64,000 nucleotides of DNA from Candidatus Amesbacteria bacterium GW2011_GWB1_47_19. GTDB taxonomy: Bacteria > Patescibacteriota > Microgenomatia > CAZETR01 > Amesbacteraceae. The stretch spans positions 7,093 to 71,092 of the forward strand of contig LCNZ01000002.1 in the NCBI GenBank assembly GCA_001002325.1. The letters run 5' to 3'. The notes beneath the pieces were generated by a model. It saw only the letters and a list, made by a program, of their open reading frames with translations. It had not been told where the DNA came from and did no database searches. Numbering within the stretch: the stretch's first letter is position 1; each line of letters opens with the position of its first letter. Made by a program: the position numbers and the translations under genes. Shown here piece after piece: positions 424-59,708 of the stretch.

Positions 424-449
424 GCTCCTGAATATAATATAATGAATTT

Positions 450-5279: not shown

Positions 5280-5280
5280 A

Positions 5281-8570: not shown

Positions 8571-8571
8571 T

Positions 8572-11993: not shown

Positions 11994-12017
11994 TGGTATT
12001 TACATGTATTATAAACT

Positions 12018-22851: not shown

Positions 22852-23461
22852 AATCCTTAATCATCTGTCGTAATGTAAATATTATTCCATGTGTGAGTAC
22901 GACATGAAATGCTTCTATAGCCGGTGTGCCGTAGACTTCATTTATGACTGGAACTACCAGGCAGACATTAGCCATTTGTTTCATAGCTCCTCCATCAAAT
23001 CCGGAAAATCCCAGGATTTTTGCACCTCGCGATTTTGCTAATTTCATTGCTGCTACCATATTCTGAGACCAGGGACCGGCATCTCCCATACCACTTCCTC
23101 CGTGTACCGAGAATCCCACTAAAACATCGTTCTTTGCCAACCAAGGTTCCAGTTGTTCGGCAAAAACTGTTCCCCAACCGCTATCATTCGTCCAGGCGCT
23201 AACCAATGGAATATTATCTACCAGCGACATGGCCTTGAACCGTTTCTTGTGAGGGATGATTGTGGTTTTTGCTAAATCAGATGCAAAATGGGTAGCTGTC
23301 GATGCGGAACCACCGCACCCCATCACAAATATTGTTCCGGAATTCTTCCAAGTCTCAAATAGAATATCTATTGCTTTATCCAATTCTTTTCCGCTTCCCA
23401 AAAATGTTGCGGACTTGATGATTTCAAAAAAATATTCTTTAAAAGTGAATTGTTGATTCAT
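22820..23461 (-). CDS. gmhA: SIS-domain D-sedoheptulose 7-phosphate isomerase (GmhA)
   Basis: IFVMGCGGSASTATHFASDL...VLVGFSVHGGSG...ILGFSGFDGGAMKQMANVCLVVP...IEAFHVVLTH: GmhA-specific pattern. Confidence 0.8.
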   Translation of the reverse strand: MNQQFTFKEYFFEIIKSATFLGSGKELDKAIDILFETWKNSGTIFVMGCGGSASTATHFASDLAKTTIIPHKKRFKAMSLVDNIPLVSAWTNDSGWGTVFAEQLEPWLAKNDVLVGFSVHGGSGMGDAGPWSQNMVAAMKLAKSRGAKILGFSGFDGGAMKQMANVCLVVPVINEVYGTPAIEAFHVVLTHGIIFTLRQMIKDFDNGKANGKK

Positions 23462-23481
23462 AAAGAAGTATCCCTATAATA

Positions 23482-25475: not shown

Positions 25476-26185
25476 AAATTCTTTCTCCTGATGTGTTCAC
25501 TGGTCTTTAACAGGGAATCAAATGTTCCCATATCTGACCAATAGTCATTTTTCTTCAACAATATTAACTGTCCAATTTTAAGATATTCATTATTTAGATC
25601 CGTTATTTCTAATTCTCCCCGGGTTGACGGTCTAATTTTATCTATCATATCAAATACCCGGTTATCATAAAAATGTGGCCCCGTCACTACCAGGTTAGAA
25701 TTAGCCTTTTGCGCTTTTTCTTCAATCGATATTAATTTACCCCGACTGTCATATTTCGGAATTGCAAAACGATTGAATTCGGATGTTTTCCGTAAAAAAG
25801 ACATGGCGCCTGTGGCGAAAGCAGACACTTCGGATTTAAAATCATTTTCGTAATAATTATCACCCGCACAAACCATTATTGATTGATTTTGTGTAAATTT
25901 TCGGCATCTCAAAATAGCGTCGGACATTCCTGCTGGTGTCGGTTGTTCAACGTAGGTCAGCCGGACATCCCATTTCGCCGGTATATGATTCATCAACATT
26001 CTTATCTGGTTTCCGTGTGGTGGACCGCTAATAACCGCAATATCTTTTATTCCGGAGGAAAATATTGTGTGCAAGGGATAAAAAAACATCGGCAGGTTCC
26101 AAACCAGTAAAGCGTGTTTATTTACAGCCTTCGTAACTGGATTCAATCTGGTGCCTGTTCCCCCGGTCAGAACAATACCTTTCAT
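25472..26185 (-). CDS. hddC: Sugar-1-phosphate nucleotidyltransferase (HddC-like GDP-heptose pyrophosphorylase)
   Basis: MKGIVLTGGTGTRLNPVT (G-x-G-T-R-L) N-terminal signature of RmlA/GlmU-type NTP transferases; about 237 aa. Confidence 0.75.
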   Translation of the reverse strand: MKGIVLTGGTGTRLNPVTKAVNKHALLVWNLPMFFYPLHTIFSSGIKDIAVISGPPHGNQIRMLMNHIPAKWDVRLTYVEQPTPAGMSDAILRCRKFTQNQSIMVCAGDNYYENDFKSEVSAFATGAMSFLRKTSEFNRFAIPKYDSRGKLISIEEKAQKANSNLVVTGPHFYDNRVFDMIDKIRPSTRGELEITDLNNEYLKIGQLILLKKNDYWSDMGTFDSLLKTSEHIRRKNL

Positions 26186-29481: not shown

Positions 29482-30198
29482 TTATTTATCTGATGAATAG
29501 TGATCCCGGGTAAAATTCAAATTGGCTAAATTTCCAGTGTCGTACCATTTCTTAAGTTCGATAGCTTTGAATTTAATTCCCTTATTCACCATTAATTGCA
29601 TTGCTGCACAATCATTTAGCGACGAGTCGTTTGGATTTGCATTATACAATTTTCCCAAAGCGGACCAAAAATCCTTATAATCCTTTAGACCTACTAGTCC
29701 GATGTGAAATAAGTCCCATTCCGATGCCCCCTTGCGATTCATTTGCTTCATATATCCGTCTTTAATGGTAAAAGAACTCAAGTATTTAGTGTTAAATAAC
29801 TCGGGATCCAATCCTTTCGACCCCCCGTTCCAGTTGAATTTTTCCGGTGAAGGAAGGGAACCTTTTATTATCGTGTCGTTGCAGTGGAATATAAAAGGGC
29901 ATTGGAGTTTGTCTTTTGCCCTGAGCATTGAGTAACCTAAACTACTTCCGTCTCCCTGGTATTTATCTACCCATACAAACGTAAATTTCCTTCCCGGATA
30001 GGCTTTTATTAAATAGTCCCTGATCTTATATCCAAAATACCCCAGAGTGATTACAGATTCAATATCTGGAGAATATAGGTCGACTATATAATTTATTACG
30101 GGTCGCTTATTTAATAGAACCAACGATTTGTTGGTTTTGGCTGTCAATTCACCCAATCTGGATCCGGTGCCGGAAGTGGTAATTAATATTTTATACAT
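29482..30198 (-). CDS. Stand-alone nucleotidyltransferase (paralog of the N-terminal domain of 34355-35923)
   Basis: MYKILITTSGTGSRLGELT...LGYFGYKIRDYL...FVWVDKYQGDGSSLGYS...LQCPFIFHCNDTII is colinear with MKYKVLITTSGTGFRMGSL...LGYYGQYVKDFL...FIWVDKYTGRGSSLVYS...LQCPFIYHAGDTLV. Confidence 0.7.
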   Translation of the reverse strand: MYKILITTSGTGSRLGELTAKTNKSLVLLNKRPVINYIVDLYSPDIESVITLGYFGYKIRDYLIKAYPGRKFTFVWVDKYQGDGSSLGYSMLRAKDKLQCPFIFHCNDTIIKGSLPSPEKFNWNGGSKGLDPELFNTKYLSSFTIKDGYMKQMNRKGASEWDLFHIGLVGLKDYKDFWSALGKLYNANPNDSSLNDCAAMQLMVNKGIKFKAIELKKWYDTGNLANLNFTRDHYSSDK

Positions 30199-30574: not shown

Positions 30575-31258
30575 TTATATTCGATTCAAAAAATTCCAGG
30601 TGTTTTCGGCATTTACAGACCCGACCGTCATTTGTAAAGGTTTAAAGCGCAAGGCAGGACGAATTCCGCTCATTTTGTAATATTGGGTCATATTACTCTC
30701 GTCTGGTAATTTTGTAAGTCTGGCAACAGAAATATGCAGAATATTAGTCAAGGGCAAGGGAGAGAATCCTTCTCGTATACCATCACTAGATACGGTTTCC
30801 CTAGCACTTAATATCACTTGCGGAATATTTGTGGCCGCTATAACAGTATTCCCGCCTTTATCCACGAACATATAGTCAAAACTAAGGGTTAACCCTGGAA
30901 GACGCCTTATATTGTTTTCACCCAAAATTATTTTTCTCATCTTCTCTTCCTTCTCGGGTATTACTGCATCCTCCCTTTTTATCTCAAGCACGGTTGAGTG
31001 TAATGGGAAGTCTATACCAGCCATAAACAATTCTGCCCCCGTTGACTCTGCCACCTTTTGCAAAGGTTCAGTAATCCGCTTTAAAAACTCCTGCTGAGAA
31101 CTCTCATCAAAAGTAAGAGTGATACCAAATCTTTTTCTCAACTCTTCTTCTGGAAAAGATTTAAATTCCACAAACTCGCCCTGCAATGCACCCTGGTAGC
31201 CGAGTCTTGCATTTCCAATATATTTTACAATTGTCGGTAATCTAGTAATTGTTTCCAT
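30575..31258 (-). CDS. 2H-phosphoesterase-superfamily protein (LigT/cyclic phosphodiesterase-like)
   Basis: Two H-x-[TS]-x motifs about 90 aa apart: FPLHSTVL and ILHISVAR. The track start is a TTG at 31294; internal ATG (METITRL) at 31258 is preferred. Confidence 0.5.
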   Translation of the reverse strand: METITRLPTIVKYIGNARLGYQGALQGEFVEFKSFPEEELRKRFGITLTFDESSQQEFLKRITEPLQKVAESTGAELFMAGIDFPLHSTVLEIKREDAVIPEKEEKMRKIILGENNIRRLPGLTLSFDYMFVDKGGNTVIAATNIPQVILSARETVSSDGIREGFSPLPLTNILHISVARLTKLPDESNMTQYYKMSGIRPALRFKPLQMTVGSVNAENTWNFLNRI

Positions 31259-31265
31259 CGGCCGT

Positions 31266-31294
31266 ATTGTACTAAGCAATTTAATAAAATGCAA
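31266..31294 (-). promoter_or_regulatory. Sigma70-like promoter candidate TTGCAT-17-TACAAT (minus strand) for the 2H-phosphoesterase gene
   Basis: The -35 abuts the repeat copy; the -10 lies only about 7 nt from the ATG, so the transcript would be near-leaderless. Confidence 0.35.
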
Positions 31295-32074: not shown

Positions 32075-32992
32075 TCACCGGACCCCAACCCTGAAATCAA
32101 CATATCCGCGATAACACTCCTGAGCTAGAGTTAAAAGCTTCCCATGTATATCCGGATTGCAGGCACCGATAGCCACAGACTTCGTCTCCGCGGTGACCGG
32201 GTTATCTTCTAAATCTGTAGCCACTCCGCCGGCCTGTTCAGTCGCAAAGGCCCCGCATCTCACATCCCACTCACCTCCGATTGCGTGCGTAATCCAAGCG
32301 TGTCCTCTGGTAATAGCCTGACGTTGATTATTCACATTGCTGCCGGCCGACAATAAACTAATATCCGCGTCTAAAATATCCGGCAATCTGGCAATCATCG
32401 CCGAGTAGGGCCCGGCTGTAGTCGTTCGCAAAGTAGTATCCATAAATACGGTCGCCCTTTTTTTGTCCGGTTGCGGCATATGAACTTTCTCAATATGTTC
32501 CCCAGTGGGTATTAGTTTTTCATCTAGACCTACCTGGTATACCAAGCCTGTTTGACAAACTAATAACTCGCGCGAAAAAGGATCACAAATTGCACCCGCC
32601 AGAGGGCAGCCGTTTTCTTCTACAATCACTGTAGTTGTAGAGCCGGCAAGCCCGCCCTTATAAATACCGGTTCCATCCAGCGGATCAAAGATCCACCTTC
32701 GCCTACTTTCGCTTTTGCCTGAAGTACCTGATTCTTCTCCGGTAATTAAATCATGAGGGTATTTGTTAGTAATAATGTTTGCAATAACCGCCTCTGAAAT
32801 TCGATCTGCCTTTGTTTGCCACGTATTATCATGAGTCTTCAAAATCGCCACTAAATCTCCTGACCGGTGAAAACGCACTAATTTACGGCCACCCAAGATA
32901 GCCGCTTCAGCACAGACGATCGCATCTTTAGAAAATCCTAAATTCGTCAGTAACTCAGTTGGTCTGGCTTCTTCTTCCCTTAAGTTTCGCAC
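32075..32992 (-). CDS. Inositol monophosphatase-family phosphatase (second copy)
   Basis: WIFDPLDGTGIYKGG and GEWDVRCGAFATEQAGGVATDLEDNP motifs. Confidence 0.75.
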   Translation of the reverse strand: MRNLREEEARPTELLTNLGFSKDAIVCAEAAILGGRKLVRFHRSGDLVAILKTHDNTWQTKADRISEAVIANIITNKYPHDLITGEESGTSGKSESRRRWIFDPLDGTGIYKGGLAGSTTTVIVEENGCPLAGAICDPFSRELLVCQTGLVYQVGLDEKLIPTGEHIEKVHMPQPDKKRATVFMDTTLRTTTAGPYSAMIARLPDILDADISLLSAGSNVNNQRQAITRGHAWITHAIGGEWDVRCGAFATEQAGGVATDLEDNPVTAETKSVAIGACNPDIHGKLLTLAQECYRGYVDFRVGVR

Positions 32993-32993: not shown

Positions 32994-33629
32994 GTGGAAA
33001 GGATTATATCACACTATAAGTTTAGTATACTTATTATTTATACCCCGGAAAGTAATCGTGATACAATCGATTCTATGGTCAAACCCCGGACCAGATTAAT
33101 ACTCAAAGAGATTAAACAGGTCCTAGATCACGTCGATGAGAAACAAGCCATAGATTTTATTAATGTCATTTTAAGTGCCAGGAGAATCGTTGTTTGTGGC
33201 GCGGGCAGAGTCGGAATTGCAACCAGTGCATTCGGTATGCGCTTATCACAATTAGGTTTGTCCGCCTTTAGTATAGGAGACAGTAATGTGCCCAGTATCG
33301 GTAAGCGGGATGTCTTACTAACCGCATCAGGTTCGGGAGAAACACAAACCATAATCGATATCACCTCAAGAGCAAAACAAAATGAGGTAAAAATCGCCTT
33401 AATAACAGCTAGCCCCAAATCAAGACTTGCCCAGATGGCTGATTGCATACTCATACTCAACTCCCCGACAAAATATAGCGATCATAAAAGTATTGAAACC
33501 AAACAGCCAATGACTGCACTAAATGAACAATGTCTCTGGATATTTTATGATTCTTTAGTTCTAGAACTCATGGAAATTATGGGTGAAACTAGTCAAAGTA
33601 TGTGGGCTAGACACTCGACTTTAGAATAA
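32994..33629 (+). CDS. SIS-domain sugar-phosphate isomerase (PHI/HxlB-like or SIS-only arabinose-5-P isomerase)
   Basis: RIVVCGAGRVGIATSAFGMRL...DVLLTASGSGETQ...KIALITASPKS, a single SIS domain with no CBS pair. Confidence 0.7.
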   Translation: MERIISHYKFSILIIYTPESNRDTIDSMVKPRTRLILKEIKQVLDHVDEKQAIDFINVILSARRIVVCGAGRVGIATSAFGMRLSQLGLSAFSIGDSNVPSIGKRDVLLTASGSGETQTIIDITSRAKQNEVKIALITASPKSRLAQMADCILILNSPTKYSDHKSIETKQPMTALNEQCLWIFYDSLVLELMEIMGETSQSMWARHSTLE

Positions 33630-33656: not shown

Positions 33657-34358
33657 ATGAATAAATCATTAAAAGTAAAAACTTCGGACAGGAATTATTG
33701 GCTATCTGCTTCTTTGATTTGCGCAGATGTCAACAATCTTGCGGATGATGTAAGAATATTGGAACTATCGGGTATGGACTTTTTACACATTGACGTTATG
33801 GATGGCATGTTCGTTCCCCGATTCGGCATGTTTCCCGAACAGGTCGCCGGTATCAGGAAAATCTCTTCACTTCCGATGGATCTTCATTTAATGGTAGAAA
33901 ATCCGGAGCCTTACTTTGAAACGTTTCGTGATGCCGGCGTTGATTATATAAGTGTGCATGTTGAAGTTTGTAGGCATTTAAATCGCACGGTTTCTCTCAT
34001 CAAAAAGTTAGGCTGCAAAGCCGGATTAGCAATTAACCCTGCTACTCCAATTGAATTTCTGCCATATGTCCTGGATGATATCAAAATGATTAATCTTATG
34101 GGTATAAATCCTGGCATAGTAGGTCATAAGTTAATCGGGTTTACTTATGAAAAAATTCGTAGATTAAAATCAATTGTCGGCGAGCGGGATATTTTCATCG
34201 AGATTGATGGAGGTGTTACAACCGAATCCGCTTCCGAGATGATTCAAGCCGGTGCGAACATGTTAGTGTGTGGTTCGTCAACTGTCTTTAGAAAAGAAAT
34301 GTCTATCACCAAGGCAATTGAATCATTAAGGGTAAATATCGAAAAGTCCATTAAATGA
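33657..34358 (+). CDS. Ribulose-phosphate 3-epimerase-family protein (Rpe-like)
   Basis: LHIDVMDGMFVPRFG, DLHLMV, INPG..G, EIDGGV, VCGSS: the Rpe catalytic His/Asp pattern on a ribulose-phosphate-binding barrel. Confidence 0.75.
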   Translation: MNKSLKVKTSDRNYWLSASLICADVNNLADDVRILELSGMDFLHIDVMDGMFVPRFGMFPEQVAGIRKISSLPMDLHLMVENPEPYFETFRDAGVDYISVHVEVCRHLNRTVSLIKKLGCKAGLAINPATPIEFLPYVLDDIKMINLMGINPGIVGHKLIGFTYEKIRRLKSIVGERDIFIEIDGGVTTESASEMIQAGANMLVCGSSTVFRKEMSITKAIESLRVNIEKSIK

Positions 34359-35923
34359 AATATAAAGTTTTGATAACCACTTCTGGTACGGGGTTTAGGA
34401 TGGGTAGTTTGGTCGAAGATACAAACCAAACCCTTATAAAAGTCGGCGAAAAACCTATTTTGTCCCGCATAGTTGAATCCTACCCCCAAAATATTACTTT
34501 GGTGATCACACTGGGCTATTACGGTCAATACGTCAAGGACTTCTTGGAAATTGCGTATCCGGATAGAAAGTTTGAATTTATATGGGTTGATAAATACACC
34601 GGTAGGGGTAGCAGTTTAGTCTATTCAATATCAAAAGCTTCTGCCAAGCTTCAATGCCCGTTTATTTATCACGCGGGTGATACATTAGTCAAAGAAACGA
34701 TTCCGCCACCAAATGCTAACTGGAATGGGGGAATGCTTAATTTAAATCTTTCACAATATCGCTCTTTCGACATCCTTAAAGATAAGGTAGTTAAGTTTTA
34801 CGATAAAGGTGTGGATGATACAGATTATGTTCACATCGGTCTATTAGGTATCAAAGATTATGAATTATTTTGGAAAAGTTTGAGATCAATTCTAAAAGCA
34901 AGCAATCCTGATATCACTTACTTAAGTGATGTTCATGTTTTAGCAAAAATGCTGGAGTTAGGTACCGAGTTTAAATTAGAGAAATATGAAACCTGGCACG
35001 ATGTTGGTTATCCTGAAGGATTATATAAAGCCAGAGTTGATTATAGAGATAAATATACCGTCCTAGACAAAAAGAGTGAAGCCATATATTTCGTCGGTAA
35101 TAAAGTTATAAAATTTTTTTCAGAATCAAATGTAGTCAGTGATCGGATAAAACGGGCAGAGTTATTATCTGGTTTAGTACCTAAAATTGTTAACGAGAGA
35201 TCTAACTTCTATGCATATTCATATGTAAAAGGTGATTTATTTGCAAATATTGTAAACAAAAATAATTTTTTGGATTTATTAAAATGGGCGTCTAAATATT
35301 TATGGCAGCCGCTGAAAGATTTAGACAAAAATGAATTCGTAAAAGCTTGTATCAAATTCTACAAAGAAAAAACATATGAGCGGGTAAAAATGTATCTTAA
35401 AAAGAAAATAATTAACGATAAAGCAGATAGAATTAACGGATTAGACACTCCATCAATTTCGGATGTTTTATCAAAAGTGGATTTTATTGAAATATGTCAG
35501 ACCGAACCATACAGATTTCATGGAGACTTTATTCTGGATAATATATTAAAAACTGAAAATGGATTTTGTCTACTGGATTGGAGACAGGATTTCGGTGGTA
35601 GAATCGATATGGGAGATCGCTATTATGATTTGAGTAAGTTGAGCCATAATTTATTAGTCAATCATCGAAAAGTAAATGGACATCAATTCAAAATAATAGA
35701 ACAGGATCGTGATATTACCTGTGAGGTTGAAAGAGAACAGAGATTTATAGATTGTGAAAATATACTTTTTGACTTCATTAATCAAAATAATTACAATGCT
35801 CGGCGGGTTAAAGTATTAAGAGGTATAATTTGGTTGAATATGTCACCTTTACATGAACCTCCTCTCGATGACTTTTTATATTATTTTGGTAAATATCATC
35901 TTTGGAAGAGCCTGAATGAATAA
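34355..35923 (+). CDS. Bifunctional nucleotidyltransferase (N-terminal) / APH-ChoK-type kinase (C-terminal) fusion
   Basis: N-terminal VLITTSGTGFRMG NTP-transferase fold (paralog of 29482-30198). C-terminal FHGDFILDNIL (Brenner HxDxxxxN catalytic loop) and LLDWRQDFGGRIDMGDRYYDL (DFG-like Mg-binding D) of aminoglycoside/choline/sugar-1-kinase family. Confidence 0.7.
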   Translation: MKYKVLITTSGTGFRMGSLVEDTNQTLIKVGEKPILSRIVESYPQNITLVITLGYYGQYVKDFLEIAYPDRKFEFIWVDKYTGRGSSLVYSISKASAKLQCPFIYHAGDTLVKETIPPPNANWNGGMLNLNLSQYRSFDILKDKVVKFYDKGVDDTDYVHIGLLGIKDYELFWKSLRSILKASNPDITYLSDVHVLAKMLELGTEFKLEKYETWHDVGYPEGLYKARVDYRDKYTVLDKKSEAIYFVGNKVIKFFSESNVVSDRIKRAELLSGLVPKIVNERSNFYAYSYVKGDLFANIVNKNNFLDLLKWASKYLWQPLKDLDKNEFVKACIKFYKEKTYERVKMYLKKKIINDKADRINGLDTPSISDVLSKVDFIEICQTEPYRFHGDFILDNILKTENGFCLLDWRQDFGGRIDMGDRYYDLSKLSHNLLVNHRKVNGHQFKIIEQDRDITCEVEREQRFIDCENILFDFINQNNYNARRVKVLRGIIWLNMSPLHEPPLDDFLYYFGKYHLWKSLNE

Positions 35924-36443
35924 AATGAAAAACTTTATTATCGATGTCGACGGAGTGTTGACTGACGGCCAGTTCCATTACTCAGCAGAAGGAAAAATAA
36001 TGAAAGTATTTGGTCCAGACGACGCCGACGCTTTAGCCCTACTTAAAGAAAAAATGTATATCCATATGATATCCGGCGATAAAAGAGGCTTTCCCATAAC
36101 CAAAAAAAGGGTAGCCGAAGACATGAAATTCCCACTGAATCTGGTAAGTACCTTTGAGAGGATAGAATGGATAAAAAATAAATTTAATCCCAGCGAGACC
36201 ATCTATATTGGAGACGGTATTTACGACGCCTTAGTTTTTAAAGAGGTAGGCTACTCAATAGCTGTTGCCAACGCTTGTGACATTGCCAAAAAATATGCTG
36301 ACTTCGTTACGGTTAGAAAAGGCGCGGAAGGGGCGGTAGCTGAAGCGGCCTTACATATTATGGACAAGTTCTTTGAACCGATAGATTTAAATAATTTGAA
36401 ACCAAAACACGGTTCAGGCGTCTGGAAATCTGGCAAACAGTAA
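35916..36443 (+). CDS. HAD-IIIA KdsC-family sugar-phosphate phosphatase
   Basis: FIIDVDGVLTDG, ISGDKR, YIGDGIYD, VRKGAEGAVAEA align with the E. coli KdsC motifs LDVDGVLSDG / ITGRK / YVGDDLID / GGRGAVRE. Confidence 0.75.
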   Translation: MNKMKNFIIDVDGVLTDGQFHYSAEGKIMKVFGPDDADALALLKEKMYIHMISGDKRGFPITKKRVAEDMKFPLNLVSTFERIEWIKNKFNPSETIYIGDGIYDALVFKEVGYSIAVANACDIAKKYADFVTVRKGAEGAVAEAALHIMDKFFEPIDLNNLKPKHGSGVWKSGKQ

Positions 36444-36459: not shown

Positions 36460-37320
36460 ATGTCTAAATTACTTACAAAACTTTGGCAGATCTTTGAACA
36501 GGTAGTGTTTCATTATTCTTACCCCAGATACAATTACCCCTTATATTTCGTAGCCAAGCGCTATTGTAAATTCTACGAAAACAACGAAAATGGGAACCTC
36601 TCTACTAACGGCGAATTATTCTTTATTACCAGTATACTAAAACAAATTGACCCAGAGGTTTTATTTGATATCGGTGCCAATAAAGGAGAGTATTCGCAAT
36701 TAATATTAGATCAATTCCCTGATTGTATTATTCACTGTTTCGAACCCGATAGCAGGGTATTTTCCATACTTAAGACCAAATATAAAAATATTAACAATAT
36801 TAAGTTAAATCACTTGGCAGTATCCGATCACAACGGTAAAGCAAAATTCTATCTAAACAAGGACCCTGGACTGAATTCTTTATTTGACATGAATAATATC
36901 GGTTATCATTATGACAATATGCTTTCAACGGTAAGTCTTGAAACTATAGATAATTACTGTAAAACTCATTATATTAAAACTATCGATTTTGTAAAAATCG
37001 ATGTTGAAGGAGCTGAGCTGTCGGTTTTAATGGGAGGACCAAGAATGTTATCGGGTAATAGAATAAAAATGATTCAGTTTGAATACGGACATGCAGCCAT
37101 ATCTTCCAAGACCTTCTTAAAAGATATATATGATTTACTGTTAGGTTACAACTATACTATTTATAAAATTATGCCCCTGGGTTTGCTTCATCAGCCTTAT
37201 TCACCCTATAATGAGCACATCGCTTTTGCCAATTACCTGGCTGTAAATTCGAAAGTCAAAATCAATTCTGAATATTTAATAAATCGACCAGATATTTATC
37301 GTCAAGTTCCCATAATATGA
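36460..37320 (+). CDS. FkbM-family methyltransferase
   Basis: LFDIGANKGEYS...CFEPDSRVF...IDFVKIDVEGAELSVL, the defining FkbM pattern. Confidence 0.8.
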   Translation: MSKLLTKLWQIFEQVVFHYSYPRYNYPLYFVAKRYCKFYENNENGNLSTNGELFFITSILKQIDPEVLFDIGANKGEYSQLILDQFPDCIIHCFEPDSRVFSILKTKYKNINNIKLNHLAVSDHNGKAKFYLNKDPGLNSLFDMNNIGYHYDNMLSTVSLETIDNYCKTHYIKTIDFVKIDVEGAELSVLMGGPRMLSGNRIKMIQFEYGHAAISSKTFLKDIYDLLLGYNYTIYKIMPLGLLHQPYSPYNEHIAFANYLAVNSKVKINSEYLINRPDIYRQVPII

Positions 37321-38447
37321 TTACCGTTTTCTGCAACGTATATATAAATTCTCTGGAAAAGCTATCACTTTTTAAAGATACATTCAAAAATGTATTTCCT
37401 ATCAGCGATAACTGGCTTATCAATATCCGCGGTAAGTATAAAGACCAAGTAATTAAACAAATAAAAAAGATTCCGGGTAACAATCGCCAATGCACTTTTT
37501 TTCAAAATCTTAACGATGACGATTGGGCAGAAAGCGCTAGAGAAATGATAAAGGATGCAAAATATGACCACATCTATATATATCTGGAAGATCATTTTTT
37601 ACAGCAACCACTTTCACATTTCCGAAATGTAATAAATGATGCTATAAGGATACAAACGGACTTCATCCCCTACTCCTTTTTTGATATTGGAATGAGTACT
37701 AAGAGCGTTGAAATCTATAATCCGACAACCAGCCGGTATTTCGAAACATTTATATTGACACCCGAACTATTACCCCTGATACGCTCCTTCAACCCAAATT
37801 TCTATCCAATCTCTCTGGTAGGAATATATTCCAAGACATTATTAATTAAAGTCCTGAAAGCTGAAGATAAGAAAAAGTTGTTAGTTCATCCTTATATACA
37901 ATTATTCATGCAAAATGTTTTATTCACATATCCACGAAACCGTCGTTTAATTTTCTTTTTGAACAAAGTATTACAGATTTATAGGCTAGTGCTAAATACC
38001 CCAAAAAGCCCAATGAATATCGAAAGATCAATTCATGATATCGAGTTAAGTTTACTGCCAATAAAAATAAGTATTTTAAAGCAGGAATTGTTTGCAAACT
38101 GGGATGATGATAACGGTAGTTTAAACCTCAGTTTAATTAAGAGAGGTCTGTATCCAAAAAAACTTTTATGTACAGATAAGAACAACAACAACTCCGGTGC
38201 TAAATTATCCCGAGTTTTGAATTTGTCTAAAGGTGGTTGTTACTCCGCTCAGTACCATCCTGAAATAGGTCGAATAGTAAATATTCCTAAAAAGGAGATA
38301 TCAGTTATTCAAGGAAGTCTGATTATAGAGGGGATGGGAGAAAGGTATATTGCGAATTCTGGTAAAAAGATGAATATTTACGCAAATATACCGCATAAAA
38401 TAACAGCTCGAAAAATTACGAAATATCGGTCTTCAATCTACTTCTGA
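37317..38447 (+). CDS. Hypothetical protein (376 aa), no recognisable family
   Basis: Soluble, AT-rich; contains HIYIYLEDHF (possible acidic DxD-like site). ATGA-coupled to the FkbM gene upstream and followed directly by a GT2. Confidence 0.5.
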   Translation: MITVFCNVYINSLEKLSLFKDTFKNVFPISDNWLINIRGKYKDQVIKQIKKIPGNNRQCTFFQNLNDDDWAESAREMIKDAKYDHIYIYLEDHFLQQPLSHFRNVINDAIRIQTDFIPYSFFDIGMSTKSVEIYNPTTSRYFETFILTPELLPLIRSFNPNFYPISLVGIYSKTLLIKVLKAEDKKKLLVHPYIQLFMQNVLFTYPRNRRLIFFLNKVLQIYRLVLNTPKSPMNIERSIHDIELSLLPIKISILKQELFANWDDDNGSLNLSLIKRGLYPKKLLCTDKNNNNSGAKLSRVLNLSKGGCYSAQYHPEIGRIVNIPKKEISVIQGSLIIEGMGERYIANSGKKMNIYANIPHKITARKITKYRSSIYF

Positions 38448-38450: not shown

Positions 38451-39254
38451 ATGACAGCTCCGTTGGTCTCGGTAGTCTTGGCATCATATAATAACGCCGG
38501 ATTAATTTCGGAATCCATTCGAAGTATACTCAATCAAACTTACTCCAACTTCGAGGTAATAATTGCTGATGACGGATCTGATGACGATAGTCAAAGTATT
38601 ATTAATAAGTTTGCTTCCGCATATCCCAGAATTAAAACCATTTTAAGCAAACAAAACGAAGGTATTTCAAATAATCGGAATAAGGCAATCAGAAAAGCTA
38701 CAGGTACATACATAGCAATTGTTGACTCAGATGACATCTGTTTACCAACTAGGTTATCAGAACAAGTCAAATATTTGGAGAATCACGCGAACGTGGGAGT
38801 CTTGGGTACCAAATGGTACGTTTTTACAGATAATCCGGATAACTTTGTTAAAGGTAATTTAAGCATTAATGATATTAACGCTGGAAAAGTACCTGTTCAT
38901 AATCCCACAACTATGATTAGAAAACAGATTTTTGATAATTATGGACTATTCGATTCCCGCATCCGCTACTGTGAGGACGTTGAATTGTACTACCGCTGGT
39001 ATAGTCAGGGTGTAGTTTTCAGAAATTTGAATAGATATTTAACAAAGTACAGGGTAGCTCATGGAAACAATACAGGTGAAAACATCAATGCTCTTTTGTA
39101 TTGGCAACTTTTCAAATTAAATATGATGGCGATTACAAAATATAAAATAAGATTTTCTTTATCTGGATATTTATTTACTCTAAAATTATTTTTATATTGC
39201 CTGTATCGTTCCTTACGATTAAATCATATATATTCTGTGACTAGAGATATATGA
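38451..39254 (+). CDS. GT2-family glycosyltransferase
   Basis: VSVVLASYNNAGLI...EVIIADDGSDDDS...AIVDSDD (DxD). Confidence 0.8.
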   Translation: MTAPLVSVVLASYNNAGLISESIRSILNQTYSNFEVIIADDGSDDDSQSIINKFASAYPRIKTILSKQNEGISNNRNKAIRKATGTYIAIVDSDDICLPTRLSEQVKYLENHANVGVLGTKWYVFTDNPDNFVKGNLSINDINAGKVPVHNPTTMIRKQIFDNYGLFDSRIRYCEDVELYYRWYSQGVVFRNLNRYLTKYRVAHGNNTGENINALLYWQLFKLNMMAITKYKIRFSLSGYLFTLKLFLYCLYRSLRLNHIYSVTRDI

Positions 39255-40345
39255 TTACGAAAACAATCTGCTTAGTCAATTTAAACGCTTACTGTTTGTT
39301 TAATCAGAAAAGCGAAGCCCCTATGGGAGGTGCAGAACTGGACATGTATACCTTGGCTCAGGGTCTTAAAAAAAAATATAACGTTACATTTATCACAGGC
39401 GATTGGGGTCAGAACCCTGAAGAAACCGTCCATGAAATCAGACTTATCAGATCAGTCAACTTAAAAGGTAACTATTTGTCAGGCTTACTGAAATTTATTA
39501 TCGCCCTTATCAAAGCAGATTCAGAGATATATATTTCTTCAGGAGCAGGACCGGAGGCAGGTCTGATTTGTTTATATAGTAGATTGTTCGGAAGAAAATA
39601 TATTTATCGGTCTGTCTCATCATTTGATTGTGATAACAGCTATATTAAAGGACACAGGCTATTGGGGTTAATATATTTATTTGCGGTAAACAATTGTAAT
39701 AAATTTGTAACCACCGTTAAAAATCAAAAAAAGCTATTATCTATAAGTCACCCGGGGGTCATACCCCGTGTTACCCATATTAATCAGGGACTAAAGATTT
39801 TCAAACGTAAAAATAATAAAAAGGCCGGTGTACTATGGGTTTCTCGCTGTGTCCCGTCTAAACATCCGGAATTGTTTATTGATTTAGCTAAGAGATATAA
39901 GAATTTAAAGTTTACCATGATTTGCCCCAAACAAGGAGGATTAGACAGCTTTTACGAAGACGTTAAATCACAGGCCATGCTGGTACCTAATTTAAAATTT
40001 ATCAATTACGTACCTTTTAAACAAATTCAGAAGTTCTATGACCGGTCATATATTTTTATTAATACATCCGACTTTGAAGGTTTTACATATACATTAATCC
40101 AATGCGGACAGGCTGGAACCCCGGTAGTTTATTATAGGGTAAACCCGGATGGAGTAATTACTAAACACGATTTAGGATATTTCTCTAACGGGAATTATCG
40201 ATTAATGTGCAGCCAAATCAGCACTCTATCCCGTAAAAATACTTTATGGAGGAATAAATCAGAAGCGATATCGAAGTATTTCCTTAAATTTCATGATATA
40301 GACAGCTTGATACCGAAGTGGACGAAAATATTTAACTCTCTGTAA
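39251..40345 (+). CDS. GT4-family (GT-B) glycosyltransferase
   Basis: N-terminal GGAE; C-terminal FINTSDFEGFTYTLIQCGQAGTPVV (E-x7-E region). Confidence 0.65.
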   Translation: MITKTICLVNLNAYCLFNQKSEAPMGGAELDMYTLAQGLKKKYNVTFITGDWGQNPEETVHEIRLIRSVNLKGNYLSGLLKFIIALIKADSEIYISSGAGPEAGLICLYSRLFGRKYIYRSVSSFDCDNSYIKGHRLLGLIYLFAVNNCNKFVTTVKNQKKLLSISHPGVIPRVTHINQGLKIFKRKNNKKAGVLWVSRCVPSKHPELFIDLAKRYKNLKFTMICPKQGGLDSFYEDVKSQAMLVPNLKFINYVPFKQIQKFYDRSYIFINTSDFEGFTYTLIQCGQAGTPVVYYRVNPDGVITKHDLGYFSNGNYRLMCSQISTLSRKNTLWRNKSEAISKYFLKFHDIDSLIPKWTKIFNSL

Positions 40346-40352
40346 AATTAAT

Positions 40353-41195
40353 ATGAGTCTGGATTTACATACATATGAGCTTACCTACTCAACCGGAAAT
40401 CACTTTAGTTTTGGAAAAAATTGGCAGAATTTCCTTAACTCTATTGATAACCTGCGAATTAATAAGTCTAAGATATCCCTATCTGAGTTTCTTGGAGGTG
40501 AGAAAAATATTAAAGGTAAATCGTTTATTGACTTCGGCAGCGGAAGCGGATTGTTTTCTTTGGCTGCATATCTATTAGGGGCATCAAGAATCGTTAGTGT
40601 AGATATCGATAATGCATCTTTAGAGTGTACTGAAACATTGAGAAGTAATTATGGCAGACCAACAAATTGGTCAATTACTAAGGGTTCGGCTTTGGATAAA
40701 CAGTTTATCAAATCTCTTGGAAAATTTGATATTGTATATTCATGGGGAGTACTTCACCACACCGGGGACATGTATCAAGCGTTAAATAATGTATCAAGCT
40801 TAATCGCACCAAGAGGTATATTTTATGTTTCTATTTATAATAAAACTACCAGTTGGCTTCAGGGTGGTCCTTCCTGGCAGTGGTTACGGATCAAAGCTAT
40901 TTATAATTCTTCAAATTCGGTTATTAAACAATTGATGCTATCGTGTTACACCTTGGTTCAGATTATAGGTTTAATATGTATCGCTCGAATAAACCCTGTT
41001 TCCTATATTTATAATTACAAAAACAACCGGGGTATGAGTTGGAAACACGATCTGATTGACTGGTTGGGTGGCTATCCTTACGAATATGCTACGCCGGACG
41101 AGATCATTAAACATCTGAAAATTTTACACTTATCGTGTATAAAGGTAGTTCCTACAAAAAATACCGGCTGCAATGAATTCTTATTTGTTCGGTGA
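40353..41195 (+). CDS. Class I SAM-dependent methyltransferase
   Basis: FIDFGSGSGLFSL (motif I), VSVDID (motif II acidic). Confidence 0.75.
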   Translation: MSLDLHTYELTYSTGNHFSFGKNWQNFLNSIDNLRINKSKISLSEFLGGEKNIKGKSFIDFGSGSGLFSLAAYLLGASRIVSVDIDNASLECTETLRSNYGRPTNWSITKGSALDKQFIKSLGKFDIVYSWGVLHHTGDMYQALNNVSSLIAPRGIFYVSIYNKTTSWLQGGPSWQWLRIKAIYNSSNSVIKQLMLSCYTLVQIIGLICIARINPVSYIYNYKNNRGMSWKHDLIDWLGGYPYEYATPDEIIKHLKILHLSCIKVVPTKNTGCNEFLFVR

Positions 41196-43190
41196 ATCGA
41201 TATATCTGTAAATACTTACATCATTATTGTCAAATACTTTTTCAAAATATGGCGATCTTTCGAACTTATCAAGTTTGGCTGGAATAAAGTTCATTCCATA
41301 CCACCAATCATACCTACTAAAAAAACTTTTCTGTTTAACTTTTGAATAAAGTATGTAAATGTTTACCTGTTTATGATTCTTGCCTTTGAATAAATAATTA
41401 TAATTATTTATTTCTTGATCAAGCGTTTCAAATCTTTTTAAGTAGTTTTTGCACAAGTCATTATAAGCAAGTGCTAATTGTTTAATATTAAAGTTGTTAT
41501 TTTGATCGACCGTTAAAGATACCAATTTATTTCTTTCTTTAATCAGAGACTCATCATAATTTTTATAATTGCTGAATATTTTTATCAATTGTGGATTTAA
41601 TGTATCTTCATTGAAATATTTAACTAGATTTTCGTCTAATAAATCAATTACCCAAAAATTACCGTATTCATTAATAGCAGGAAAGTTGCCGAATTGGGTA
41701 ACAACAAGACTTACCCCCTGTTGGTTATTAATATATTTTATAGCTTCAATTTCCTTGTGATTAATAGTATAAAAAGTGGGAAGGAAATTTACATATATGG
41801 TTGCTGCAATGGATCCAATCCATAAAAATATACCTACCTTTAACAGTTTTGGATATTTTTGTATGTTTCCAATGACAACCGGGGTCAAGAGTATCAAACC
41901 GATCGATAAAAGAGGAAATGCGCGAGATGGTAAAAAAAGAAATCCTAAACGGGGTAGTATCTCTAAAATCAATATATATATAAAACAAAAAGATAAGACT
42001 AAGATAATGTAATAATCAATCAATATCTTTTTTAGGATATAAAAATATACGAATAAAATGGATAAATATGGGAGTAGAAAAGCGATATTCGCGGCATAAG
42101 TCACAACCCCGAAATAATTCCTGAAAGGATTGAATCCTGCATAACTTTTTCGAAAGAATCCAAACAGGAAATTAATATGTATCCAAAAATTTGTATCTAA
42201 GTAAGGAATTATGGCTACAGTAGATAAAAGTGTCATTACCAGAAAAATCTTCTTATTACTTCTTGAAAGCAATCTGTACTTTATAATTAATCCCAAAACC
42301 AATAGCGGTAAGAACACCAGAATTGTATAGTGCAATTTCCAGCCGGTGGCGATTGTAATCAACAGAACAATTAACCATTCATACCAGTACTTGGTCTTAA
42401 TTAGCTTATAGAGTAAAAATATTACAAATGGCGATAAGACATAAATAAAAGTTTGTGGTCTGACAAAGCTCATTTCCATTATCAGCATGGGGACAGAGAA
42501 TAATGTTAATAAAGACAATTGAGACCTTGCATCGTCGGAGTAAGTATTAATGACATTATAAAAGCCGATTATTAGACCGATTCCGAATATCCAAACCATT
42601 CCAAAACGAAACAAGAATGTTAAATCAATTCCGGTTAAAAGATTTAGAAAAATAATTTGTGATTGCATCATAGGCTGATAACCTTCAGCTACCAGTGGAA
42701 ACAAGTTTGCTCTCCATTCAGGGTATTTAGAAGAATTTAGAGCCTCTTTAACAGCACTGAAGAAATATGAAGCATCAGGAGAAATAATATTACCCTGTCT
42801 ATTTATTATAAAAAAAATAAGTAAACAGTATACAAATACAGAGGATATTAAAAGGAAAGTCTTATGATTAAATACCCATAAATAATTAACCTCGTTTTGT
42901 CGGTAAAAGACTTTGCTCATTACGGCGTCAACTATTGCCAGGATTATAATCACTACGGTATACAACAACAAAGCGGTTAAACTATTCAGAGGAAATAATA
43001 GGGGATTTATCTTATGAATAAAAAAACCTATCAATGGAACTGTTATCATTGACAAAATAACTGCAATCCACCCATGCTCAACTGCGTTTAATCGGTTTCT
43101 ACGGAATATTATTCTGACTAGGTATATACCCGGCAACCAAAAAAATACAAACGATCCTATAATGATTCTTAATATCGATATTGGAAACAT
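41181..43190 (-). CDS. Large polytopic membrane protein (669 aa) with about 220-aa C-terminal soluble domain; candidate polymerase/GT-C-like
   Basis: About 14 TM helices; very AT-rich; no WWDYG; convergent 15-bp overlap with the methyltransferase. Confidence 0.5.
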   Translation of the reverse strand: MFPISILRIIIGSFVFFWLPGIYLVRIIFRRNRLNAVEHGWIAVILSMITVPLIGFFIHKINPLLFPLNSLTALLLYTVVIIILAIVDAVMSKVFYRQNEVNYLWVFNHKTFLLISSVFVYCLLIFFIINRQGNIISPDASYFFSAVKEALNSSKYPEWRANLFPLVAEGYQPMMQSQIIFLNLLTGIDLTFLFRFGMVWIFGIGLIIGFYNVINTYSDDARSQLSLLTLFSVPMLIMEMSFVRPQTFIYVLSPFVIFLLYKLIKTKYWYEWLIVLLITIATGWKLHYTILVFLPLLVLGLIIKYRLLSRSNKKIFLVMTLLSTVAIIPYLDTNFWIHINFLFGFFRKSYAGFNPFRNYFGVVTYAANIAFLLPYLSILFVYFYILKKILIDYYIILVLSFCFIYILILEILPRLGFLFLPSRAFPLLSIGLILLTPVVIGNIQKYPKLLKVGIFLWIGSIAATIYVNFLPTFYTINHKEIEAIKYINNQQGVSLVVTQFGNFPAINEYGNFWVIDLLDENLVKYFNEDTLNPQLIKIFSNYKNYDESLIKERNKLVSLTVDQNNNFNIKQLALAYNDLCKNYLKRFETLDQEINNYNYLFKGKNHKQVNIYILYSKVKQKSFFSRYDWWYGMNFIPAKLDKFERSPYFEKVFDNNDVSIYRYIDSPNK

Positions 43191-58309: not shown

Positions 58310-58313
58310 CCTT

Positions 58314-59697: not shown

Positions 59698-59708
59698 TTA
59701 TATCTTAA

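What the first reader, a model, noticed from the sequence alone, without database searches (positions are those of the whole stretch)
34355..35923. Nucleotidyltransferase fused to an APH/ChoK-fold kinase, with a stand-alone NT paralog at 29482-30198
The N-terminal 230 aa are colinear with the separate 238-aa NT at 29482-30198 (same TSGTG.R.G, LGY.G, VDKY.G.GSSL.YS, LQCPF.FH motifs). The C-terminal about 290 aa carry the HGD....N catalytic loop and DxG-type metal-binding Asp of the protein-kinase-like small-molecule kinases. Known pairs of this kind act as separate proteins (LicA/LicC, AmgK/MurU). The domain order NT then kinase in a single polypeptide is unusual.
Basis: seen in the sequence. 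Interest (0 to 1): 0.55.

Follow-up and report, generated by a model that had tools for sequence, protein, structure and literature searches.

The report
Fused sugar-activating enzyme with backup partner
This is a real two-domain enzyme (nucleotidyltransferase plus small-molecule kinase) at the centre of a conserved but uncharacterised gene cassette, mostly in tiny CPR bacteria, that probably builds a nucleotide-activated rare sugar for the cell surface; the separate copy of the transferase nearby is a regular partner that appears to take over when the fused copy loses key catalytic residues.

Summary
ORF 34355-35923 encodes a 522-aa protein. Its N-terminal ~230 aa form an RmlA/MurU/LicC-type nucleotidyltransferase (NT) that is 45% identical to the stand-alone NT at 29482-30198. 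Its C-terminal ~290 aa form an APH/choline-kinase-fold kinase with invariant K253, H389-G-D391-x4-N396 and D408. The fusion is not an artefact: the architecture is the norm in a family of at least 414 clusters at 50% identity, mainly Patescibacteria (CPR).

The gene is translationally coupled inside a conserved cassette: PHI-like SIS isomerase, Rpe-like epimerase, NT-kinase, KdsC-like HAD phosphatase, then methyltransferases and glycosyltransferases. All four core genes are present in 45 of 59 adequately flanked loci. The logic matches the heptose (GmhA/HldE/GmhB) and MupP/AmgK/MurU routes, so the likely product is an NDP-activated rare sugar of unknown identity.

The new result concerns the NT signature. 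The fused NT loses its NTP-phosphate-binding residues (here K25Q) almost only in genomes that also carry the stand-alone NT (19/22 vs 5/48 loci, p = 8e-10; a prospective test scored 6/6). This suggests the catalytic role is handed over to the stand-alone copy.

The family is uncharacterised. I rate it a new variant of a known kind, of moderate interest.

The parts
34355..35923 (+). NT-kinase fusion gene (522 aa)
   Evidence: ORF. More than 2300 homologues, and the top 120 are full-length. AF2 model pLDDT 93, pTM 0.91.
34355..35044 (+). N-terminal nucleotidyltransferase domain (res 1-230). It has G11, G13, R15, D109, K151, W214-x-D216-x-G218, but Q25 in place of the signature Lys.
   Evidence: Foldseek: MurU 4y7u 4.9e-13, LicC 1jyk 4.5e-12. 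PDB profile hit to LicC 9.6e-8. Motif table.
35045..35920 (+). C-terminal APH/choline-kinase-fold kinase domain (res 231-522) with K253, H389-G-D391-x4-N396 and D408
   Evidence: AF2 pLDDT 95. Foldseek: APH(2'')-IIa 3.3e-5, choline/ethanolamine kinases, maltokinase, FN3K. Invariant residues. 414 clusters with E<=1e-30.
29482..30198 (-). Stand-alone NT paralog ('S-type') with an intact G-x-G-x-R...N-K...D signature
   Evidence: 45% identical to the fused NT. It has its own family of 333 hits of ~231-250 aa and forms separate clades in the NJ tree. Its presence correlates with degenerate fused NTs.
32994..33629 (+). SIS-domain isomerase, 6-phospho-3-hexuloisomerase-like. The true start is probably 33075, giving 184 aa.
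   Evidence: TIGR03127 178 bits against cut-off 160. Present in 51/62 loci with enough upstream sequence. Start inferred from the 184-aa homologues.
33657..34358 (+). Ribulose-phosphate 3-epimerase-family enzyme. Its stop codon overlaps the fusion's ATG (ATGA).
   Evidence: PF00834 201 bits. TIGR01163 215 bits against cut-off 212.6; AlsE model 172 bits. Overlap. Present in 53/62 loci.
35916..36443 (+). KdsC/YrbI-like HAD phosphatase. Its start overlaps the fusion's stop by 8 nt.
   Evidence: TIGR01670 76 bits, below cut-off 107. Overlap. Immediately downstream in 50/65 loci and somewhere in the locus in 58/65. Fused to the NT-kinase in P0097.
36460..37320 (+). FkbM-family methyltransferase. 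TylF- or other SAM-methyltransferases occupy this position in other loci.
   Evidence: PF05050 67 bits. TylF genes follow the HAD in L001, L003, L077, L079 and L080. TylF is fused to the NT-kinase in P0004.
37317..38447 (+). Conserved unknown 376-aa protein (accessory). Some homologues carry a Cupin_2 domain and one is fused to SIS.
   Evidence: No Pfam or NCBIfam hit. 105 homologues; PF07883 in some; P0355 carries SIS. Recurs downstream of the cassette at 41-44% identity.
38451..41195 (+). GT2 glycosyltransferase (38451-39254), GT1 (39251-40345) and a SAM methyltransferase (40353-41195): probable users or modifiers of the product
   Evidence: Pfam. The same trio recurs at 42-55% identity in L004, L019, L034 and L069.
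32075..32992 (-). Inositol-monophosphatase-family phosphatase, divergent from the cassette. An occasional partner of the stand-alone NT.
   Evidence: PF00459 80 bits. HAD-IMPase-NT order in L073. IMPase lies beside the cassette in L081 and L083.
30575..31294 (-). Unknown 239-aa protein between the IMPase and the stand-alone NT
   Evidence: Only a weak DUF5788 hit. A homologue follows the HAD in L015. Two H-x-S/T motifs are seen in the sequence; databases do not support a 2H assignment.

Best explanation
The 522-aa protein is a genuine bifunctional enzyme. It is the core of a translationally coupled cassette that makes a nucleotide-activated rare sugar for a methylated surface glycan.

Proposed route (inferred):
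1. The Rpe-like epimerase and the PHI-like SIS isomerase reshape a central ketose phosphate. Fructose-6-P is most likely; Ru5P/Xu5P or sedoheptulose-7-P are not excluded.
2. The APH-fold kinase domain phosphorylates the anomeric position.
3. The KdsC-like HAD removes the terminal phosphate. This happens either after the kinase, as in the heptose pathway, or before it, as in MupP/AmgK/MurU.
4. An NT couples the sugar-1-phosphate to an NTP.
5. The methyltransferases and glycosyltransferases downstream use or modify the product.

In this genome the fused NT domain has Gln instead of the signature Lys that binds the NTP beta-phosphate (K25Q). The stand-alone paralog at 29482-30198 keeps the full signature. 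Across relatives, loss of the Gly/Arg/Lys signature in the fused NT occurs almost only where the stand-alone NT is present, while the rest of the fused domain stays conserved. The stand-alone NT therefore probably performs most or all nucleotidyl transfer here. The fused NT domain is probably kept for another role, such as a scaffold for the kinase, sugar-phosphate binding or regulation.

Shown: the folds, the catalytic motifs, the synteny, and the motif/paralog association.
Inferred: the substrate, the step order, the nucleotide used, and the hand-over of activity.
For: Fold and motifs:
- AF2 models have pLDDT 93 and 95.
- The NT half matches MurU, LicC, RmlA and GalU.
- The kinase half matches APH(2''), choline/ethanolamine kinases, maltokinase and FN3K.
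- K253, HGD391xxxxN396, D408, D109, K151 and D216 are invariant.

Operon:
- The rpe stop overlaps the fusion's start (ATGA), and the fusion's stop overlaps the HAD start by 8 nt.

Synteny:
- The HAD is immediately downstream in 50/65 loci.
- SIS and Rpe are both present in 51/62 loci.
- All four genes are present in 45/59 loci with adequate flanks.
- Identity among these relatives is only ~45-50%.

Rosetta-stone fusions:
- NT-kinase-HAD (P0097), TylF-NT-kinase (P0004) and NT-kinase-GatZ/KbaZ-like (P0167).

Surroundings:
- Flippases, GT1/GT2 enzymes and many methyltransferases surround the cassette.

Known analogues with the same logic:
- MupP (HAD) -> AmgK (anomeric kinase) -> MurU (NT) (PMC5371407).
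- A classical SIS_2 / GHMP-kinase / HAD / NT heptose-type set lies in the same window.

Hand-over of NT activity:
- The fused NT deviates at G11/G13/R15/K25 in 22 loci, and 19 of these hold a stand-alone NT. Among 48 canonical loci only 5 do. Fisher p = 7.6e-10.
- Prospective test: 6/6.
- Reverse test: 10 of 11 fusions that share a contig length with a stand-alone NT are degenerate, against 1 of 96 canonical ones. p = 1e-7.
- Stand-alone NTs have R15 in 24/24 and K25 in 23/24.
- In FKP's homologous NT, R80A loses almost all activity and Lys89 forms a salt bridge to the beta-phosphate (PMC11982464).
Against: - No member of the family has been characterised, and none was found in the literature.
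- The sugar, the nucleotide and the step order are all unknown.
- The window's protein keeps R15 and differs only by K25Q, which may reduce activity rather than abolish it.
- In five loci both NTs are canonical.
- The fused NT domain as a whole is barely more diverged where the stand-alone NT is present (NT/kinase identity ratio 1.00 vs 1.03, p = 0.04). It clearly still does something, possibly catalysis with altered chemistry.
- Locus counts are not phylogenetically independent. My rough collapse by clade still gives p ~5e-4, but the clade counts were estimated by eye from the NJ tree.
- The best sequence-profile PDB hit of the NT half is LicC, a phosphocholine enzyme.
- NCBIfam's rules assign the SIS and Rpe proteins to RuMP/pentose-phosphate enzymes, so they could in principle be housekeeping genes that happen to be linked.
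Confidence: 0.6

Rival explanations
1. LicCA-type enzyme. The kinase phosphorylates an amino-alcohol or another small non-sugar alcohol (choline, ethanolamine), and the NT makes the CDP-activated form used to decorate a glycan or lipid.
For: - The NT profile's best solved relative by sequence is LicC (1jyk, 9.6e-8).
- LicC is also among the top three by fold.
- Choline/ethanolamine kinases rank alongside APH enzymes for the kinase half.
- A LicCA fusion is documented (PMC8590670).
- Some source annotations call relatives 'choline kinase'.
Against: - The gene's start and stop overlap an Rpe-family epimerase and a sugar-phosphate-type HAD. A SIS isomerase lies upstream, and the four-gene set is conserved in 45/59 loci.
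- Fusions to a HAD and to a GatZ/KbaZ-like ketohexose-phosphate enzyme exist.
- No LicB or LicD Pfam hit was found among the 40 window proteins scanned.
- Structural similarity to choline kinases is no better than to APH or maltokinase (TM ~0.5, 10-14% identity).
Confidence: 0.1
2. Both NT copies are active and do different jobs. They might make two different NDP-sugars or use different nucleotides. On this view the changes at R15/K25 in the fused NT reflect altered specificity or mechanism rather than loss of function.
For: - The fused NT domain stays under purifying selection where the stand-alone NT is present (ratio 1.00 vs 1.03).
- D109, K151 and D216 remain invariant in the degenerate copies.
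- Many changes are the conservative R15K.
- The stand-alone NTs form old, separate clades rather than recent duplicates.
- In five loci both copies are canonical.
Against: - R15 is replaced by G, A, D, P, S, L, Q or H, and G13 by S or D, in different lineages. This scatter is typical of relaxed constraint, not of a new specificity.
- The equivalent R80A mutation in FKP abolishes activity.
- If the stand-alone NT had an independent job, its presence should not predict loss of the fused NT's signature.
Confidence: 0.2
3. The two domains are not consecutive parts of one pathway. The kinase modifies something else, such as a finished glycan, an antibiotic-like molecule or a nucleotide-sugar, and the fusion is only a regulatory or co-expression convenience.
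For: - The kinase half's top structural hits include antibiotic kinases: APH(2''), APH(3') and macrolide phosphotransferase.
- It is not close to any known sugar anomeric kinase (TM ~0.5).
Against: - The fusion is maintained across at least 414 clusters at 50% identity, with a conserved linker.
- pTM 0.91 for the full-length model suggests a fixed two-domain assembly.
- The constant partner is a phosphatase, which completes the kinase/phosphatase/NT logic.
- All known NT+kinase fusions (FKP, LicCA, HldE) act in one pathway.
Confidence: 0.07
4. Artificial fusion created by a frameshift, sequencing error or mis-assembly.
For: None found.
Against: - The top 120 homologues, from independent assemblies, are full-length at ~520-530 aa.
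- 71 genome loci encode the same architecture.
- The junction residues are invariant.
- A 100%-identical protein is present in an independent JGI record (P0001).
Confidence: 0.01

Closest known systems
MupP / AmgK / MurU anabolic MurNAc recycling route (Pseudomonas)
   Same: It uses the same three enzyme classes: a HAD sugar-phosphate phosphatase, an APH-fold kinase acting on the anomeric hydroxyl, and a small RmlA-like NT (PMC5371407). MurU is the top structural match of the NT half (4y7u, 4.9e-13).
   Different: - Here the kinase and NT are fused, whereas AmgK and MurU are separate proteins.
- The HAD is KdsC-type rather than Gph-type.
- The route is fed by an epimerase and an isomerase (de novo) rather than by cell-wall salvage.
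- The NCBIfam MurU model scores only 18 bits against a cut-off of 250.
- The kinase half is not demonstrably close to AmgK.
ADP-/GDP-heptose pathway (GmhA, HldE or HddA+HddC, GmhB)
   Same: The logic is identical: SIS isomerase -> C1 kinase -> HAD phosphatase -> NT. In HldE the kinase and NT are fused although they catalyse non-consecutive steps (established knowledge). A classical set of this type lies in the same window at 21495-26185.
   Different: - HldE's kinase has the ribokinase/PfkB fold and its NT is cytidylyltransferase-like, with the kinase N-terminal. HddA is a GHMP kinase.
- Here the kinase has the APH fold, the NT is RmlA-like, and the order is NT then kinase.
- This cassette has an additional Rpe-like epimerase.
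- Its SIS is PHI-type rather than GmhA-type.
FKP, L-fucokinase/GDP-fucose pyrophosphorylase (Bacteroides fragilis)
   Same: It is a single polypeptide with an N-terminal NT and a C-terminal anomeric sugar kinase that feeds surface-glycan synthesis. The NT catalytic Arg, Lys and Lys correspond to R15, K25 and K151 here (PMC11982464).
   Different: - FKP is 949 aa.
- Its kinase has the GHMP fold.
- Its NT carries a beta-helix extension.
- It is a salvage enzyme acting on free fucose, with no phosphatase, epimerase or isomerase partners.
LicCA (Treponema denticola) and LicC/LicA
   Same: It has the same two superfamilies in one polypeptide: a LicC-type NT plus a choline-kinase/APH-fold kinase (PMC8590670). 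LicC is the best PDB sequence-profile hit of the NT half.
   Different: - LicCA activates choline.
- This family is embedded in sugar-phosphate genes.
- Identity to LicC is only ~15%.
- No licB or licD partner was detected.

Membership tests
RmlA/GlmU/MurU/LicC-type nucleotidyltransferases (Pfam NTP_transferase clan) | Rossmann-like alpha/beta NT fold | tested here: met
   Foldseek: MurU 4.9e-13 (TMt 0.72), LicC 4.5e-12 (TMt 0.79), RmlA, GalU.
RmlA/GlmU/MurU/LicC-type nucleotidyltransferases (Pfam NTP_transferase clan) | N-terminal signature G-x-G-x-R ... K that binds the NTP phosphates | tested here: not met
   The fused copy has G11, G13 and R15 but Q25 where at least 89% of relatives have K. 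The stand-alone copy at 29482-30198 meets it fully.
RmlA/GlmU/MurU/LicC-type nucleotidyltransferases (Pfam NTP_transferase clan) | Metal and sugar-phosphate residues (the D of GDT, the K of DKG, the D of WxDxG) | tested here: met
   D109 is 65/65, K151 64/65 and D216 65/65. Equivalence to RmlA/FKP residues is inferred from motif position.
RmlA/GlmU/MurU/LicC-type nucleotidyltransferases (Pfam NTP_transferase clan) | Score above the curated Pfam or NCBIfam cut-off | tested here: not met
   The fusion has no PF00483 hit. The paralog scores 17.6 bits against 21.2. All NCBIfam NT models score far below their cut-offs. 27/39 relatives hit PF00483 at E<0.01.
APH / choline-kinase (protein-kinase-like) small-molecule kinases | Bilobal kinase-like fold | tested here: met
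   Foldseek probability 1.0 to APH(2'')-IIa, choline/ethanolamine kinases, maltokinase and FN3K. TM is only ~0.45-0.5.
APH / choline-kinase (protein-kinase-like) small-molecule kinases | Catalytic loop HxDxxxxN, downstream metal-binding Asp, and ATP-binding Lys in the N-lobe | tested here: met
   H389, D391, N396, D408 and K253 are invariant in 39 sequences.
APH / choline-kinase (protein-kinase-like) small-molecule kinases | Score above the Pfam APH gathering cut-off | tested here: not met
   20.8 bits against 23.2. 26/39 relatives hit at E<0.01.
LicCA / LicC+LicA choline activation | Association with choline uptake and transfer genes (licB, licD or CPT), and choline as substrate | tested here: not met
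   Neighbours are SIS, Rpe, HAD, methyltransferases and glycosyltransferases. No LicB or LicD hit was found among the scanned window proteins. The substrate cannot be tested with these tools.
HldE-type bifunctional heptose kinase/adenylyltransferase | PfkB (ribokinase) kinase domain plus cytidylyltransferase-like NT domain | tested here: not met
   The domains here have the APH fold and the RmlA-like fold. Only the pathway logic is shared.
MurU (NCBIfam NF045761) / AmgK | Equivalog-level similarity to MurU and AmgK | tested here: not met
   The MurU model scores 18 bits against a cut-off of 250, and only for the paralog. Identity to the MurU structure is 18%.
Any of the above | Demonstrated enzymatic activity and substrate | not testable with these tools
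   This needs biochemistry.

The most novel reading that the evidence does not exclude
The cassette encodes a previously undescribed de novo route to a nucleotide-activated rare sugar that is widespread in CPR/Patescibacteria surface-glycan loci. One candidate is a C3-epimeric hexose such as D-allose or D-altrose, made from fructose-6-P via a ketohexose-6-P and later O-methylated. The route would be built from a non-homologous enzyme set that mimics the heptose pathway. Within it, the fused NT domain has repeatedly become a conserved pseudo-enzyme domain wherever an ancient stand-alone NT paralog is present.
Probability: 0.3. Interest if true: 0.65.

Novelty: new variant of a known kind. Interest (0 to 1): 0.5.

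Why it matters
CPR/Patescibacteria make up a large share of bacterial diversity, and almost nothing is known about their surface glycans. This cassette is one of the most conserved elements of their glycan loci, and it also occurs in some Bacteroidota.

No member of the family has been characterised. It falls below every curated model's threshold, so pipelines label it 'hypothetical' or give it misleading names such as 'choline kinase' or 'dTDP-glucose pyrophosphorylase'.

Identifying the product would add a new nucleotide-sugar pathway. It would also give a compact kinase/NT (plus phosphatase) tool for chemo-enzymatic synthesis of NDP-sugars.

The systematic pairing of a degenerate fused NT with an intact stand-alone paralog is a clean natural example of a catalytic domain turning into a retained pseudo-enzyme domain. 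It warns against inferring activity from domain architecture alone.

Tried and rejected
- Sequence searches of the PDB found nothing for the kinase half, either with the single sequence or with the family profile.
- Literature searches for a characterised member or a described cassette found none. Searches for mutagenesis of the signature Arg/Lys in RmlA or GlmU found nothing usable; the FKP paper served instead.
- The hypothesis that the conserved 376-aa protein downstream is the transferase that uses the product was rejected. Its relatives carry cupin domains and one is fused to SIS, which points to an accessory isomerase or epimerase.
- The idea that the whole fused NT domain decays when the stand-alone NT is present is only weakly supported (ratio 1.00 vs 1.03, p = 0.04). 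The loss is confined to the signature residues.
- The 239-aa neighbour looks like a 2H phosphoesterase by its two H-x-S/T motifs, but neither Pfam nor the PDB supports this.
- The promoter/terminator scan gave fewer sites than shuffled sequence and was uninformative.
- The apparent stand-alone kinase P0143 starts 37 nt from a contig end, so it cannot be told apart from a truncated fusion.
Full report
**1. The observation**

The ORF at 34355-35923 (+) exists and encodes 522 aa. Its first ~220 residues align with the 238-aa ORF at 29482-30198 (-) at 45% identity, E = 7e-63.

The C-terminal half carries H389-G-D391-F-I-L-D-N396. In an alignment of 39 family members K253, H389, G390, D391, N396 and D408 are invariant. 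The conserved metal-binding Asp is D408 ('LLDWR'). The window protein's 'DFG' at 412-414 is not conserved.

Curated models are marginal. Pfam APH scores 20.8 bits against a cut-off of 23.2, and there is no Pfam NT hit for the fusion. NCBIfam gives only weak NT hits. Across the family 27/39 members hit NTP_transferase and 26/39 hit APH at E<0.01.

Structure prediction settles the fold question.
- The full-length model has pLDDT 93.2 and pTM 0.91. Its NT half matches MurU (4.9e-13), LicC (4.5e-12), RmlA and GalU.
- The kinase half modelled alone has pLDDT 95. It matches APH(2'')-IIa (3.3e-5), choline/ethanolamine kinases, maltokinase and fructosamine-3-kinase, but only at TM ~0.45-0.5 and 10-15% identity.

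The kinase half is therefore a deeply divergent member of the APH/ChoK superfamily with no close solved relative.

**2. The fusion is not an artefact**

A search of 5.8 billion proteins found 2307 hits. The best 120 are all full-length (~520-530 aa, 45-51% identity), and most come from Patescibacteria/CPR MAGs.

An exhaustive search with the kinase half alone found 414 clusters at 50% identity with E<=1e-30. About three-quarters of the top 150 are ~505-550 aa with the kinase at residues ~230-520. Linker residues L237 and K239 are invariant. Seventy-one genome loci encode the same architecture.

**3. Context**

The gene is translationally coupled on both sides.
- The stop codon of an Rpe-family epimerase (33657-34358) overlaps its ATG (ATGA).
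- Its own stop overlaps the start of a KdsC-like HAD phosphatase (35916-36443) by 8 nt.
- Upstream lies a SIS isomerase that passes NCBIfam's 6-phospho-3-hexuloisomerase cut-off (178 bits against 160). Its real start is probably 33075.
- Downstream lie an FkbM methyltransferase, a conserved unknown protein, GT2, GT1 and another methyltransferase.

Synteny across relatives that are only ~45-50% identical:

| Feature | Loci |
|---|---|
| HAD immediately downstream | 50/65 |
| HAD anywhere in the locus | 58/65 |
| SIS and Rpe both present | 51/62 |
| All four genes present, adequate flanks | 45/59 |

Further fusions tie the partners together: NT-kinase-HAD (P0097), TylF-NT-kinase (P0004) and NT-kinase-GatZ/KbaZ-like (P0167). 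The last of these hints that ketohexose phosphates are the substrates. The surroundings are always glycan loci with flippases, glycosyltransferases and many methyltransferases.

**4. Mechanism**

The enzyme set (isomerase, epimerase, kinase, phosphatase, NT) has the logic of two known routes. One is the heptose pathway: GmhA, then HldE or HddA, then GmhB, then the NT (established knowledge). The other is MupP (HAD) -> AmgK (APH-fold anomeric kinase) -> MurU (PMC5371407).

The same window carries a classical heptose-type set on the other strand: SIS_2 at 22820-23461, a GHMP kinase at 24489-25475, an RmlA/HddC-like NT at 25472-26185 and a HAD at 21495-22112. The cassette is therefore a second, non-homologous implementation of the same scheme.

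I infer the following route:
1. A central ketose phosphate is epimerised and isomerised.
2. The kinase domain phosphorylates C1.
3. The HAD removes the terminal phosphate.
4. An NT forms the NDP-sugar.

The order of kinase and phosphatase is open. The many invariant basic residues in the kinase's substrate region (R264, R267, K339, R343, R410, K428, H431, H437, H500) weakly favour a phosphorylated substrate, which would mean the kinase acts first. The identity of the sugar and of the nucleotide is unknown. A C3-epimeric hexose such as allose or altrose, made from F6P, is one possibility. It is consistent with the Rpe/AlsE-like epimerase and the TylF-type O-methyltransferases, but it is not demonstrated.

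**5. The stand-alone paralog**

The stand-alone NT is not a chance duplicate. An NT of this type sits beside the cassette in about 20 of the genome loci. These NTs form their own clades, distinct from the fused NT domains, in an NJ tree. They belong to a family of 333 hits, nearly all 231-250 aa.

Catalytic positions:

| Position | Fused NT | Stand-alone NT |
|---|---|---|
| R15 | 51/65 | 24/24 |
| K25 | 58/65 | 23/24 |
| D109 | 65/65 | 24/24 |
| K151 | 64/65 | 23/24 |
| D216 | 65/65 | 24/24 |

Deviations in the fused copy coincide with presence of the stand-alone NT.
- After adding six loci chosen prospectively because their fusion lacks R15, all six of which had an intact stand-alone NT beside the cassette, the table is 19/22 deviating loci with the paralog against 5/48 canonical loci. 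Fisher p = 7.6e-10.
- A reverse test gave the same answer. Of 11 fusion homologues that share a contig length with a stand-alone NT, 10 are degenerate, against 1 of 96 canonical ones. p = 1e-7.

The window's protein belongs to this class: it has K25Q, with the paralog 4 kb away.

In FKP's homologous NT domain, R80A loses almost all activity, Lys89 forms a salt bridge to the NTP beta-phosphate, and Lys187 assists attack by the sugar-1-phosphate (PMC11982464). By motif position these correspond to R15, K25 and K151.

The fused NT domain as a whole is hardly more diverged when the paralog is present (ratio 1.00 vs 1.03, p = 0.04). The loss is therefore specific to the NTP-phosphate-binding residues, and the domain is retained for some other role.

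Caveats:
- The counts are not phylogenetically independent.
- K25Q alone may only weaken activity.
- Five loci have two canonical copies.

**6. Comparison with what is known**

NT-kinase fusions in this order are documented. FKP has the NT at the N-terminus and a GHMP kinase at the C-terminus. LicCA combines a LicC-type NT with a choline kinase.

The protein is not a member of MurU, HldE, FKP or LicCA by their defining features (see the membership table). It works like them.

No characterised member of this family, and no description of the cassette, was found. Source annotations are 'hypothetical' or generic.

**7. Verdict**

This is a real, widespread and uncharacterised bifunctional enzyme family. 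I rate it a new variant of a known kind. Interest is moderate (0.5). It rests mainly on a probable new nucleotide-sugar route in CPR bacteria and on the systematic hand-over of the NT catalytic signature to a stand-alone paralog.

Noticed in passing
window 450-8570 (and 61333-62832): Tandem array of five ~535-550-aa ORFs on the + strand. Four of them are 31-34% identical paralogs, and the ORF at 450-2051 matches PMT_2/PMT (GT-C glycosyltransferase-like). A sixth, weaker relative lies at 61333-62832.
   Followed up: partly
window 52522-57479: Run of four ~420-aa ORFs. The ORF at 53697-54971 is a Polysacc_synt (Wzx-like flippase) protein, and it is 24% identical to the ORF at 56214-57479. This looks like a tandem array of divergent flippase paralogs.
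   Followed up: partly
window 1-12000 and 52000-64000 versus 12000-52000: There is a sharp compositional contrast. The flanks have GC 0.44-0.49 with strongly negative AT skew (down to -0.31). The central ~40-kb glycan island has GC 0.32-0.43 with AT skew near zero.
   Followed up: no
window 20490-26185: A classical heptose-type nucleotide-sugar set: IMPase (20490-21320), GmhB-like HAD (21495-22112), transaldolase/FSA (22099-22851, -), SIS_2 (22820-23461, -), GFO/IDH/MocA oxidoreductase (23482-24492, -), GHMP kinase (24489-25475, -) and an RmlA/HddC-like NT (25472-26185, -). This means two parallel isomerase/kinase/phosphatase/NT systems in one locus.
   Followed up: partly
window 30575-31294 (-): An unknown 239-aa protein with two H-x-S/T motifs (PLHSTV, ILHISV) about 88 residues apart, as in 2H phosphoesterases. 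Pfam and PDB searches give no support. A homologue follows the HAD in L015.
   Followed up: partly
window 37317-38447: A conserved 376-aa protein with no Pfam or NCBIfam hit. It has only ~105 homologues. Some carry a Cupin_2 domain and one (P0355, 469 aa) is fused to a SIS domain. It is possibly an extra sugar-phosphate isomerase or epimerase of the pathway.
   Followed up: partly
window 41181-43190 (-): A 669-aa polytopic membrane protein with no family hit, lying convergent to the cassette operon. It may be a GT-C or polymerase-like enzyme.
   Followed up: no
L083:3027-5720 (P0167) and neighbours: A variant in which the NT-kinase is fused to a GatZ/KbaZ-like domain. It is flanked on the other strand by a stand-alone NT, an IMPase, a KdsC-like HAD and a shikimate-dehydrogenase-like gene. 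No SIS or Rpe is present on the 8.8-kb contig.
   Followed up: partly
P0259 (724 aa): An NT-kinase homologue with an N-terminal GIY-YIG + NUMOD3 homing-endonuclease module. It could be a gene-call fusion or a mobile endonuclease inserted just upstream.
   Followed up: no
L078:1-17020: In one relative the cassette is surrounded by seven B12-binding radical-SAM genes, which suggests unusual (C-)methylation or other radical chemistry on the glycan.
   Followed up: no
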